A stretch of 64,000 bases of DNA from Eledone cirrhosa. Taxonomy: Eukaryota. The DNA is taken from positions 129,208,001 through 129,272,000 of the forward strand of contig OZ024745.1 in assembly GCA_964016885.1 (NCBI GenBank), read 5' to 3'. The translations under genes and the position numbers were made by a program. The notes under the pieces are model-generated. The model ran no database searches. It worked only from the letters and a program-made list of their open reading frames with translations, and was not told the DNA's origin. Shown here in pieces: positions 810-60,029 of this stretch (its first letter is position 1; the number at the start of each line of letters is the position of its first letter).

Positions 810-1140
810 CGGGAAAAAAAGCAACCTTAACGGTTGGAGTTTCCTGGATAATGGAGATAATATTTTATTGAGGGTAATACAAAGTTATGAGTGAGTATGC
901 AAATTTACATACTCACTCATAACTTTGTATTACCCTCAATAAAATATTATCTCCATTATCCAGGAAACTCCAACCGTTAAGGTTCCCTTTTTTCCGGGTA
1001 TATCAATATTTATTTATAAAACAAATCTGTATTTTATCTGATGAAAGCGCACCATAATTTGCTTTGGTTGCCCTTGAAATATATATAATAAAATAAATAT
1101 GGTTTTATAAATATAGTTTCCATTTATTAATATATTTTAT
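810..1140 (+). mobile_element. Fold-back PLE-derived element: palindrome plus hammerhead, ending in (TA)n
   Basis: Perfect 77-bp arms at 823-899 and 908-984, then an HHR at 1030-1095. The tail AAATAAATATGGTTTTATAAATATAGTTTCC is shared with 53572-53695. Confidence 0.8.
1030..1095 (+). ncRNA. Type I hammerhead ribozyme motif
   Basis: Stem I TATTTTAT/ATAAAATA; CTGATGA at 1038-1044; imperfect stem II AAGCGCACC...GGTTGCCCTT; GAAA at 1076-1079; palindromic stem III; predicted cleavage after AUA (1087). Confidence 0.8.
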
Positions 1141-1208
1141 ATATATATATATATATATATATATATATATATATATATATATATATATATATATATATAT
1201 ATATATAC

Positions 1209-1422
1209 GTTATTCCGGGTTGAATCGGAGGTAACCACAGTAAGTAAGGTACTAAATACATTGCAGAGTATAACAGTTTTAATATAGATGAGATTCTACA
1301 GGACTAGAACTGTTTCATTCTTTAGAAATCATCAGGAATCTCTTTATTTAATTTAGATATTCCTGATGATTTCTAAAGAATGAAACAATTCTAGTCCTGT
1401 AGAATCTCATCTATATTAAAAC
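1209..1422. mobile_element. Fold-back element with hammerheads on both strands, in (TA)n/(CA)n
   Basis: Inverted arms ~1276-1344 and 1355-1422. Same family at 20512-20698, 41505-41537, 50277-50332, 52571-52697 and 59914-60019. Confidence 0.85.
1290..1342 (-). ncRNA. Type I hammerhead ribozyme motif (inverted copy at 1356-1408, plus)
   Basis: Minus strand reads GAGATTC-CTGATGA-tTTCtaaaGAAt-GAA-ACAG ttctagtc CTGT-A-GAATCTC: 7-bp stem I, intact core, 4-bp stem III, GUA cleavage triplet. Confidence 0.9.
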
Positions 1423-1647
1423 ACACACACATATATATATATATATATATATATATATATATATATATATATATATATATATATATATATATATATATAT
1501 ATTTTGAGTTTATGTTGGTTGTATACCAACACCCTAGTATGCAGGCTGGAGCACTCGACGAAGTGCGCAGGCTGGTTTGGTTACTCCGGAGTAGTGTAAA
1601 ATAAAGTTAAATAAAAGTCAAATGATTAAAATTTAGCTTCGTTTATT

Positions 1648-1702
1648 ACTGCTATATATATTTCAGTGACAGCCATCTTTGGCTGTGACCTCTTCAGGCA
1701 GT
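1648..1702 (-). ncRNA. Type I hammerhead ribozyme motif within a PLE-tail insert (1501-1817)
   Basis: ACTGC-CTGAAGA-GGTCACAGCCA aaga TGGCTGTCACT-GAAA-TATATA-TA-GCAGT. Homologous copy at 27979-28033. Confidence 0.85.
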
Positions 1703-57600: not shown

Positions 57601-58061
57601 CCCACACAGTCCCAGCGTGCATCTAAGATCCCGTTCCAGTCGCCCACTAACACTAAAGAGCGGGACGTTCCAAGAAAGGTCTCCAGACGCCGGAAGAAAT
57701 CAGGCCGCCCTGCTCCTGTCGGCGCATAGACGGCCACTAGCCTGAAAGCTTGCCCGTCTCCGCTGGTCACGTCCAGCACCACGAACTTACCCTCTGGGTA
57801 CAGGAAGATGGCCCGTATGGCGAGATCCAAACCTCTCCGAAAAAGCACAGCAACTCCTCCCCCCGATCCAAGACGGCTGGGAGATGCGTACACATCGTAG
57901 CCGCCGAAGATCGGTGCGAAGGCCCGTGCTTCGGAGATTTTGGTCTCGCTGATGGCCACTACATCTATGTTTAGTGACCTGAGGTCGTTGAGTAGTTGAC
58001 CCTTATACCATGACGACCCCAAGCCACGTGCATTTATGCTCCCTATTCTGAGTGAGGTCAT
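54642..58061 (-). pseudogene. LINE ORF2 (APE endonuclease, reverse transcriptase, zinc finger) with two frameshifts and one nonsense codon
   Basis: SINARGL, ISETK, VYAP, VGDWN, LDRVF, YTDHK; RPITLLN, LDQSKAFDRVDH, VRQGCPLS, AYADDV; CPRCA*GDETVLHALVQC. Frameshifts near 57490 and 56660, TAG at 55041-55043. Confidence 0.92.
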
Positions 58062-58096
58062 GTTTAAAATGGAGTGGGAAAGATGGGAAAGACCAC

Positions 58097-59544
58097 TTAC
58101 CGTACTTTTCGTAGAGGAAGGATGGTTTCTCCATCCCTTTTCACTTGATCGTCTGGTGAAGCGACCGTTGAATCGTCCCTTCGGCTGGTCGTTGACTCTT
58201 CTATGAGTATGTCCGAATATACTCTCCGGTTGAGAGTCCCTCCTAGGTCTCTGAAATCACCAACTGCGTTGGGGAATTTCGTTTTAATGTTTGTGTAATG
58301 TTTCTGTGCTGTTTTTACCAGTCTTATGTTCGTTGGCGTTTTGATTGGTGGTGGTATTATATAGTCGTGCTGTGAAATGTCTGTGTGTTCAATTATGTAG
58401 GTCATTAGTTTCTTGTTGTGTGTATTTATTGCTGTGCATTTGTTTTTCTGGGGGTGCGGTGTGGTTCTGCTATTTTCTTGTCGTTATTGCTGGGTGTGTG
58501 TGTTTTGTTGTTGTGTTTGCGATGTTGGTGCTTGTGGTGGTGGTGTTGAAGGTGTTGTTGTTGTTGGCGGTGGGGTTGTCGCCGGTGGTGATGGTGGTGC
58601 TAGTGTGGGTGGTGATGGTGTTCGTGGTGTTGCTGCTGTGAGTCTCTTTGCAGTAGCCTTTACCCTTTTTTCATTTCTTTCCTCCCTTTTCGAAGGCGAC
58701 GATGCGCTGCTTCTGCGTTTGTGCCTTCTTACGACCTTTTGCCATCCCTCTCCCACCTCACACTCCATGTCTGATTCTGTGAGGTCGGGGAGGGGTACCA
58801 GCTCCACTCTTTCACTTGTTGTTGTTGGTGATGTTTGCAGTGGAGTCTCTGTTGCAGCTGCATTTGGTATTACTGTTGTCGTTAATACTTCCACTGCTGC
58901 TGCTGTTCTTGATTTCCGTGGCGTGGGTATGGGTGCCACGGACCTATCGTTCCTGGTTGCCGCTTGTCCTGTTGCTGGTAGCCGAGGAGCCGGTTTCGGA
59001 AGGAGGGGGGTTTTCTCCTTTCTCAGGGTCTTCTCGTTGCAGAAGGCCCTGAGGTGAGTCTTCGATCCACAGCGAAAGCATTTCGGACGTTTGCCCTCAA
59101 CGCTTATGGGCTGTTGCTGTGGTTGTTGTTGTTGTTGTTGTTGTTTTTGCTGCTGCTGCTGCTGCTGTTGTTGCTGCTAATGCTGTTGTTGTTTATGCTG
59201 CTGCTGATGCTGTTTCAGCTGCTACTGTTGTTTTCCTTGTCACTGTTGCTGCTGCTGCTGTTATTACGGCTGCTACTGCTATTATTCATGACGTCAGACG
59301 AATGAAATGCGTTTTCGTATTTACTGCACACCTTTTTCGTCATTGTCGTCGTCGTGGAGAAATGTTCCATGATTTTCACGTGATTTTTCTTGACTGGCGT
59401 CGCTTGCGAAAGAGAAAGGAGGGAGAGAGACACATTTAGAGAAGGGAGGGAGAGAGACAATCTTCTCTCTGCTGTAGTGACGATTGAGGAAGAAGAAGAC
59501 GGAATAAGTGGGAGTGACCTATGAAAATTCTTTTTCGTGGTCAT
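58097..59544 (-). pseudogene. LINE ORF1 remnant with CCHC zinc knuckle
   Basis: The reverse complement of ~59030-59110 gives PISVEGKRPKCFRCGSKTHLRAFC (CX2CX4HX4C), with low-complexity flanks. Confidence 0.7.
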
Positions 59545-60029
59545 GTTTTTTTTTTGTTTAAAATAAATATTGGGCACAATACCCCAATAAGCGGTTATTT
59601 AACCCCGAAGGGCCAAATAACGGACAGAAAGACCCCTCTCACGAGGAGGAGGGTGTTTTTGTCTACAATTTGGTTAAAGTTTTAAACAATTTACAATTGT
59701 TATAGCGGTCAAAATTTACAATACCTTACAGAGCCGAGCCTCCGTCAACCATGCCATTCAATAATAATAATAATAATAATAATAATAATAATAATAATAA
59801 TAATAATAATAATAATAAGGAAAACTTTTCCATAGGGGATCGAGAAGGAACCACATCAAAGTTAAATAAGATACTGAATACATTAGTAGAGAAGATACAT
59901 ATTTATTTCAAAGAGAAATGACTTCTACGAGACTAGAACTGTTTCCTTTGTTTGAAATCAAGGCCATCCTGCTGGTTTGAAACGGATGAAAGAGTTCTGT
60001 CTCTATAGAAGTCGTTTCTATATTATATA

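What the first reader, a model, noticed from the sequence alone, without database searches (positions are those of the whole stretch)
810..60019. About 25 hammerhead-ribozyme inserts from many sequence families hidden in (TA)n tracts
Seen: short unique islands between TA runs repeatedly read as stem I - CUGANGA - stem II - GAAA - stem III - NUH - stem I'. Clear cases are 1030, 1290/1356, 1648, 26260, 27519/27668, 27979, 48837, 52571, 53608 and 53802, plus variants and 3' halves. At least ten families differ in sequence but share the fold, about one locus per 2.5 kb. Established: Penelope-like elements carry type I hammerheads in their pLTRs. Inference: a diverse (TA)n-targeting, mostly non-coding PLE/retrozyme system implying a very large genomic ribozyme load, invisible to ORF or microsatellite annotation. 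I cannot confirm whether these families are already catalogued.
Basis: partly seen in the sequence, partly recalled or inferred. Interest (0 to 1): 0.85.

Follow-up and report, generated by a model that had tools for sequence, protein, structure and literature searches.

The report
Octopus-like genome flooded with hammerhead ribozymes
The short islands between TA repeats are real hammerhead-ribozyme motifs at the tail ends of mostly truncated Penelope-like jumping genes (Hydra clade) and of one protein-free tandem repeat; the kind is known, but an estimated quarter of a million intact motifs in this probably octopod genome would exceed any animal count I found in print, and cutting is untested.

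Summary
Confirmed. The window holds 14 complete type I hammerhead motifs, against 0.12-0.17 expected for the main scans. It also holds about 18 damaged copies or 3' halves, from 13 sequence families in all. An unbiased 590-kb sample gave 47 canonical motifs against 0-5 in shuffles, about 2.3x10^5 genome-wide (bootstrap 1.4-3.3x10^5). 40 of 47 lie within 200 nt upstream of (TA)n.

They are not a separate non-coding system. Six families are the 3' ends of Hydra-clade Penelope-like elements; one related family has 13 intact 710-aa ORFs at 99.5% identity. One family is an ORF-less ~430-460-bp tandem retrozyme. Hydra elements, with hammerheads and (TA)n targeting, are published, including one from Octopus bimaculoides (PMC8557442 supplement).

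Not found in my searches: the scale (axolotl has 126,247 motifs), a 3' UTR carrying 8-11 TA tracts (the element's own target), and cephalopod U3-A8 and long-stem-II variants. Most solitary stubs probably cannot cut: many need dimers, and folding support is weak. This scan noted a similar dense population in another genome (e1-7788996).

The parts
1030..1095 (+). complete type I hammerhead, family B (palindromic 1-2 bp stem III, AUA site); family tail runs to (TA)n at 1130
   Evidence: family traced to a Hydra EN region 1.35 kb upstream in L141, UTR shared with L143
1290..1342 (-). complete hammerhead, family A (7-bp stem I, 4-bp stem III, GUA), long-tail arm of a head-to-head pair
   Evidence: family traced to a Hydra ORF in L289
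1356..1408 (+). complete hammerhead, family A, short-tail arm of the inverted pair
1648..1702 (-). complete hammerhead, family C
   Evidence: Hydra EN upstream on the same strand in 5 of 25 loci
497..800 (.). inverted tail fragments of family F (no core)
   Evidence: sequence
8550..8716 (.). family H 3' half (-) and inverted tail (+)
8874..8995 (.). two head-to-head 3' halves of family J (U3-A8 core in full copies elsewhere, GUC site)
10065..10935 (-). deleted Hydra-clade element of family E: RT core, linker piece, then family tail; 83-90% aa identity to P0001 over the RT
11873..12111 (.). two head-to-head 3' halves of a G-like family
20507..20698 (.). damaged head-to-head pair of family A
20796..20911 (.). 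two head-to-head 3' halves of family J
25608..25645 (-). complete minimal hammerhead with U3-A8 core, family L
   Evidence: same motif string counted 11 times over all loci held, window and overlapping loci included
25700..25737 (+). complete minimal hammerhead with U3-A8 core, family L, inverted mate
26260..26303 (+). hammerhead of family F (one stem I mismatch) inside a monomer-like unit (about 26143-26520) of the ORF-less ~430-460-bp tandem repeat, with an inverted tail at about 25955-26110
27517..27668 (-). complete hammerhead with ~115-nt stem II, family G
   Evidence: Hydra ORFs 1.0-1.2 kb upstream in L028 and L033
27668..27815 (+). complete hammerhead, family G, inverted mate
27979..28033 (-). 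complete hammerhead, family C
28572..28615 (+). minimal core with stem II but stem I of 2 bp or less (family I; related motifs in 5 other loci)
41504..41540 (-). family A cleavage-site and tail fragment
48834..48903 (-). complete hammerhead, E-related family; inverted 3' half at 48956-49017(+)
49115..49372 (+). Hydra RT-thumb fragment of family D, joined to a family D hammerhead with one core change (49427-49497+)
50279..50330 (-). family A, 5' core lost
52574..52622 (+). complete-core hammerhead, family A (weak stem I); 3' half at 52670-52698(-)
52905..52960 (-). 3' half of family M (full copies in L246 and L267)
53608..53673 (-). complete hammerhead, family B subfamily
53802..53872 (-). complete hammerhead, family D, with pyrimidine-rich 3' UTR upstream
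   Evidence: Hydra EN 1.1 kb upstream in L165
59863..60030 (.). decayed head-to-head pair of family A

Best explanation
The islands are hammerhead motifs at the 3' ends of many families of Hydra-clade Penelope-like retrotransposons (plus an ORF-less tandem repeat, likely a retrozyme moved in trans), which likely insert at (TA)n by target-primed reverse transcription that usually stops or flips early, so that most insertions leave only the last 50-300 bases, ribozyme included. Shown: the anatomy. Full elements read hammerhead - ~225-nt leader - 710-aa RT + C-terminal nuclease ORF - 1.7-2.0-kb 3' UTR - hammerhead - short tail - (TA)n. They occur in partial tandems and inversions, and stubs share these tails and have variable 5' junctions. 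Inferred: the GIY-YIG-type nuclease nicks (TA)n, and reverse transcription starts some tens of bases to ~150 nt downstream of the hammerhead, so the ribozyme is copied first. Because genomic copies extend past the cleavage site, the template was either not cut there or had been circularised. Inferred role of the ribozyme: cutting tandem read-through transcripts into unit-length (possibly circular) RNA, mostly as dimers through palindromic stem III. Most solitary stubs are therefore probably inert passengers; families A and J, with 4-6-bp stem III, are the best monomer candidates.
For: Motif excess over shuffles. Polarity: (TA)>=6 within 200 nt downstream for 40 of 47 sample motifs, versus 47 of 232 non-motif CTGANGA sites (Fisher p=3e-17); upstream only 17 of 47. 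The window RT fragment finds 19,161 candidates in G000. The 20 stretches fetched around long ORFs show hammerhead-ORF-hammerhead, tandem and inverted layouts; 13 intact ORFs have mean nt identity 99.5%. P0001 has RWK, DKT, CxCX5C, CxxC and CxH and no CCHH, the Hydra diagnostics. Five more families lie downstream of Hydra ORFs, and their nuclease regions are mostly 30-55% identical to each other. Compensatory changes: 3 of 13 pairs in family A and 5 of 22 in family E, with the core invariant apart from N7. Stem III is fully self-complementary in B/C/H, D, F and G. Family F: tandem ~430-460-bp units in 5 independent loci among 25 fetched; monomer fold z=-5.2.
Against: No cleavage, expression or insertion-polymorphism data. 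Rfam sees nothing, and single-motif folding is mostly weak. The covariation sets were mostly chosen by my structure scan and are related sequences, so the test is partly circular. Families H, I, J, L, M and the G-like family were not traced to an ORF. Families A and B rest on one or two clear loci each (L289; L141 with L143). Pfam did not call GIY-YIG or RT in P0001; GIY-YIG was called only in a homologue. No phylogenetic tree against reference Hydra proteins was built. For a Poseidon PLE, hammerhead cleavage was not needed for insertion in vitro, needed protein, and was not seen in RNA-seq (PMC11167929).
Confidence: 0.88

Rival explanations
1. An autonomous-looking but mostly non-coding retrozyme population: most families are ORF-less units that spread as small circular RNAs and borrow Hydra proteins.
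For: Family F fits: tandem and 1.x-mer ORF-less units. Only 2 of the 50 sample motifs (47 canonical + 3 G) had their own family's ORF within 2.5 kb upstream. Six families remain untraced.
Against: Six families were traced to Hydra ORFs. Head-to-head junctions differ among all 12 family A loci, which fits independent truncation rather than a fixed unit.
Confidence: 0.08
2. The motifs are functional host ribozymes, retained to cut pre-mRNA or shape the transcriptome.
For: Sheer density: about 1 per 13 kb. Some families could fold as monomers.
Against: Copies decay, with damaged cores and halves outnumbering complete motifs in the window. Young-element ancestry explains intact cores without host selection.
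Confidence: 0.03
3. Chance matches in AT-rich, low-complexity DNA.
For: No Rfam hit; weak folding energies; 2 of the 47 sample hits look like chance.
Against: 9 hits versus 0.12-0.17 in the window and 47 versus 0-5 in the sample; multi-copy families with fixed positions in elements.
Confidence: 0.01

Closest known systems
Hydra clade of C-terminal EN+ Penelope-like elements, incl. Hydra-1_Obim of Octopus bimaculoides (Craig et al. 2021, PMC8557442)
   Same: RWK, DKT and CxCX5C motifs, no CCHH, canonical type I hammerhead near the 3' end, (TA)n insertion, U.U mismatch at the base of stem II in several families, tandem and inverted insertions.
   Different: At least 6 ORF-linked families instead of the one listed for octopus, with different hammerhead sequences. 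The young family is about 4.1-4.4 kb, not <3 kb, because its 3' UTR is about half TA/TG microsatellite. Many intact ORFs. Copy number in the 10^5 range.
Minimal hammerheads of metazoan PLE pLTRs, incl. the U3-A8 core variant (Cervera and de la Pena 2014, PMC4209133)
   Same: Palindromic short stem III (dimer mode), many diverse families per genome, mostly solitary truncated copies, opposite-strand pairs, U3-A8 covariation.
   Different: Reported counts there are about 2,000 (+1,300), 4,000 and 9,000 per genome. Here about 2.3x10^5 by a different, looser descriptor, and some families have 60-115-nt stem II.
Non-LTR retrozymes of animals (Cervera and de la Pena 2020, PMC7229834; Li et al. 2026, bioRxiv 10.64898/2026.07.22.740005)
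   Same: Family F: ORF-less tandem unit of ~430-460 bp with one type I hammerhead, strongly folded monomer, PLE-like ends.
   Different: TA-targeted, with PLE-type inversions and an internal TA mosaic. Circular RNA is untested. No octopus or cephalopod mention in PMC7229834, and none among the species in the preprint parts read.
Penelope elements carrying microsatellites in penaeid shrimp (Yuan et al. 2021, PMC7878876)
   Same: Recently transposed PLEs move internal SSRs with them.
   Different: Here the carried repeat is the element's own apparent insertion target. One nested insertion was seen (family G inside a family E UTR, L120).

Membership tests
Type I hammerhead ribozyme | Core CUGANGA (or U3-A8 variant) ... 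GAAA ... NUH with stems I-III, open at stem I | tested here: met
   14 complete motifs in the window
Type I hammerhead ribozyme | Stem covariation with invariant core | tested here: met
   (3 of 13 and 5 of 22 pairs with double changes; partly circular selection)
Type I hammerhead ribozyme | Match to an Rfam hammerhead model | tested here: not met
Type I hammerhead ribozyme | Self-cleavage after NUH | not testable with these tools
   needs an assay
Hydra-clade PLE | RWK motif, DKT in place of DKG, CxCX5C linker, no CCHH, CxxC/CxH near the C-terminus | tested here: met
   read in P0001 against the definition
Hydra-clade PLE | Single ORF, RT followed by C-terminal GIY-YIG nuclease | tested here: inconclusive
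   Order and motifs fit by eye; Pfam silent on P0001, GIY-YIG called in homologue P0003
Hydra-clade PLE | Canonical hammerhead in pLTR and (TA)n insertion | tested here: met
Hydra-clade PLE | Phylogenetic placement with reference Hydra RTs | not tested
   reference proteins were seen only in a paper supplement; compared by eye
Naiad PLE | N-terminal nuclease, no canonical hammerhead | tested here: not met
Neptune/Nematis PLE | CX2-5CxxC linker and CCHH motif | tested here: not met
   (family E only; other families not read in full)
Non-LTR retrozyme (family F) | ORF-less tandem units of a few hundred bp, each with a type I hammerhead | tested here: met
Non-LTR retrozyme (family F) | Accumulates as monomeric circular RNA | not testable with these tools
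   needs RNA data

The most novel reading that the evidence does not exclude
This genome carries the heaviest hammerhead load of any animal (about 2.5x10^5 intact motifs, roughly 17 times the axolotl's density). It is sustained by a feedback loop in which Hydra elements carry and plant the TA repeats they target. A real fraction is active: monomer-competent families cut intronic pre-mRNA, family F forms an abundant ~430-nt circular RNA, and head-to-head stubs supply on the order of 10^5 hairpins as double-stranded RNA for editing or silencing.
Probability: 0.2. Interest if true: 0.8.

Novelty: new member of a known kind. Interest (0 to 1): 0.5.

Why it matters
The role of PLE hammerheads is an open question (Craig et al. 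even ask whether they merely parasitise PLEs). A genome with 13 or more diverged families, about 10^5 copies, young intact ORFs and both dimer-type and monomer-type motifs makes it testable, by strand bias in introns, 2',3'-cyclic-phosphate sequencing and pooled cleavage assays. It also adds an unannotated layer to cephalopod-type genomes: the recent O. vulgaris repeat annotation does not mention ribozymes in the parts I read. And it offers a concrete route by which a retroelement may spread its own microsatellite target.

Tried and rejected
Rfam scans: nothing relevant. The repeat finder was swamped by simple repeats. A DNA search for family C with the window copy found nothing because common words are skipped; an upstream query worked. 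The structure was misregistered by one column and was redone. In one search, SINE sequence contaminated the query tails, so about 40 SINE hits labelled B/D/E/X 'tail' and a few simple-repeat hits were dropped before the census, and the sample 'homology' total from that call is not used. I first read the family J hairpin in L145 as a giant stem II; it is an inversion. The idea that family A's inverted pair is a fixed MITE-like unit was rejected because the junctions differ. The idea that family E's UTR explains the genome's microsatellite load is not supported: its unique spacers hit only 1 of 59 sample loci. Sequencing runs: no RNA holder listed. Contigs of unknown type from one sample hold families F and E at 90-99% likeness, with depth rising 5' to 3' along the ORF; this was not used as evidence on expression. 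PDB sequence search: no relative. Look-ups in this scan's findings by sequence and place gave nothing relevant.
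Full report
1. Observation. The window is G000:C5:129208001-129272000 of a 3.0-Gb assembly. No call names the organism. A type I descriptor found 9 motifs with an exact core, against 0.17 in 30 local shuffles and 0.12 in 50 shuffles of a relaxed version. Allowing a long stem II added the pair at 27517/27668, and the U3-A8 core added 25608 and 25700. 26260 was accepted by homology. With damaged copies and 3' halves I count 32 segments in 13 families (SINE and simple-repeat hits dropped). 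Rfam found none. Of 11 motifs folded alone, 2 had z <= -2 and 3 showed stems I and II.

2. Genome load. I fetched 59 stretches of 10 kb at fixed positions on 26 large contigs (1 of 60 did not exist). They gave 47 canonical motifs against 5, 1, 0, 1 and 1 in five shuffles; two of the 47 look like chance. This extrapolates to 2.3x10^5 motifs (bootstrap 1.4-3.3x10^5; length-weighted 2.3x10^5). Three long-stem-II copies and five U3-A8 motifs (shuffles 0-1) add about 4x10^4. Published counts I saw: axolotl 126,247 (PMC7229834, section 15; genome 28 Gb per the 2026 preprint), X. tropicalis about 9,000 and coelacanth about 4,000 (PMC4209133), giant squid 235 by Rfam (PMC6962438). The descriptors differ, so the comparison is indicative only. 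Motifs are polar: (TA)>=6 follows within 200 nt for 40 of 47, versus 47 of 232 control CTGANGA sites (p=3e-17); it precedes within 200 nt for only 17 of 47.

3. What they belong to. The RT fragment at 10591-10935(-) has 19,161 candidates in G000. In 20 stretches fetched around long ORFs, the unit is hammerhead, ~225-nt leader, 710-aa ORF, 1.74-2.04-kb 3' UTR, identical hammerhead, short tail and (TA)n, often in tandem or with inverted 5' pieces. Of 15 ORF starts found, 13 are intact, with mean identity 99.5%, so the family is young. The protein shows the Hydra diagnostics. 1,339 homologues were found, the best 120 listed at 41-58% identity and nearly all unnamed. The other links to Hydra-type ORFs are:
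- G: L028 and L033.
- D: L165, with L151, L159 and L168 sharing its UTR.
- B: L141, with L143 sharing its UTR.
- C: 5 of 25 loci.
- A: clearly 1 of 20 extended stretches (L289), plus L288 and inverted fragments in L272 and L287.
Their nuclease regions are mostly 30-55% identical, so these are old, separate lineages. Family F has no ORF of its own. It forms head-to-tail units of 426-459 bp in 5 independent loci among 25 fetched, and 1.x-mers in others; its monomer folds with z=-5.2. Two F loci have Hydra fragments adjacent on the other strand (L173, L188), which hints at a Hydra origin. Families H, I, J, L, M and the G-like family were not traced.

4. Selection on the fold. Across subfamilies the core is invariant apart from N7, while stems change in pairs: family A 3 of 13 pairs (1/500 shuffles reach the covariation score) and family E 5 of 22 pairs (0/500). 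The sequences are related and were mostly picked by a structure scan, so this supports but does not prove selection. Stem III is fully self-complementary in B/C/H, D, F and G, nearly so in E, and a stable hairpin only in J and weakly in A.

5. Mechanism. Shown: anatomy, polarity, variable truncation and inversion points, short and long tails on opposite arms. Inferred from PLE biology (PMC8557442, PMC11167929): nicking at (TA)n and target-primed reverse transcription starting just 3' of the hammerhead, with early stops and template switches. Every insertion copies the ribozyme first, which explains the load without any host function. Insertions extend beyond NUH, so the template was uncut there or circular. 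The ribozyme's likely job is processing tandem transcripts, mostly as dimers. Solitary dimer-type stubs and head-to-head pairs, which would pair with each other, are probably silent. A caution from print: a Poseidon hammerhead needed protein to cut and was dispensable for insertion in vitro.

6. A twist. All 23 family E 3' UTRs examined are 48-56% alternating purine-pyrimidine repeat, with 8-11 (TA)>=5 tracts in a conserved order, and 21 of 23 match a degenerate second hammerhead. The element therefore plants its own apparent target, and L120 shows a family G insertion in such a UTR. PLE-carried SSRs are known in shrimp. The share of this genome's repeats explained this way is not shown and may be small (1 of 59 sample loci hit).

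7. Known and new. The kind is published, octopus example included, and O. vulgaris PLEs are annotated at 6.83% and 190 families, with no ribozyme or hammerhead term in that supplement. I found no report of the scale, of a cephalopod retrozyme, or of TA-laden Hydra UTRs in searches. Subscription papers, Dfam, Repbase and the Zenodo library were not available and may hold these families.

Papers seen: PMC4209133 parts 1-2 of 4; PMC8557442 passages, section 11, supplement part 2 and search hits; PMC7229834 passages and section 15; bioRxiv 10.64898/2026.07.22.740005 parts 1-2 of 5 (supplements closed); PMC13282606 parts 1-2 of 3 and a supplement search; passages of PMC11167929, PMC7878876, PMC6962438 and PMC6155905.

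8. Verdict. Real, well explained, a new and exceptionally large member set of a known kind. Activity is untested. Interest 0.5.

Noticed in passing
window 54582-59176 (-): Near-full LINE with endonuclease (PF03372) and RT (PF00078) in broken frames and an upstream CCHC-like ORF; Tx1/L1-like by recall. 3' fragments of the same kind at about 5700-6230 and 6417-6827.
   Followed up: partly
window 37576-39256 (+): LINE RT fragment (PF00078), R4/Dong-like by recall.
   Followed up: partly
window, about 20 places (e.g. 2740-3480 tandem, 13264-13700, 29158-29347, 50731-50910): Abundant ~190-bp tRNA-type SINE, including a 3-copy tandem; it also sits inside some Hydra UTRs (L033, L168).
   Followed up: no
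window (9 sites) and L013-L071 (32 sites): Near-perfect hairpins (arms of 40 nt or more) from head-to-head stubs, 24 of 32 within 150 nt of (TA)n, 0 in shuffles: potential double-stranded RNA for editing or silencing.
   Followed up: partly
L248-L252, L052, L027, L057, L070: At least four U3-A8-core hammerhead families (J, K, L and one more). J has a 6-bp stem III and a GUC site, yet nearly all genomic J copies seen are cut off inside stem II.
   Followed up: partly
L102-L121: Degenerate internal hammerhead copy (NUG at the site) in 21 of 23 family E 3' UTRs; internal partial duplications of the pre-hammerhead region also occur in the A, C and G UTRs.
   Followed up: partly
window 9010-9340: Array of a 14-nt spacer alternating with (TA)n runs, directly after a family J pair.
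   Followed up: no
window 51513-51899, 33471-37107: 35-bp tandem repeat (11 copies), and 146-bp and 12-bp minisatellites.
   Followed up: no
L274:2701-5050, L285, L286:3777-5300: ORFs of other, non-Hydra Penelope-like types (Poseidon/Neptune-like by eye); family I may belong to one of them.
   Followed up: no
window 30740-30880 and 31240-31360: Two copies of a ~130-bp TA-adjacent element with no clear hammerhead core.
   Followed up: no
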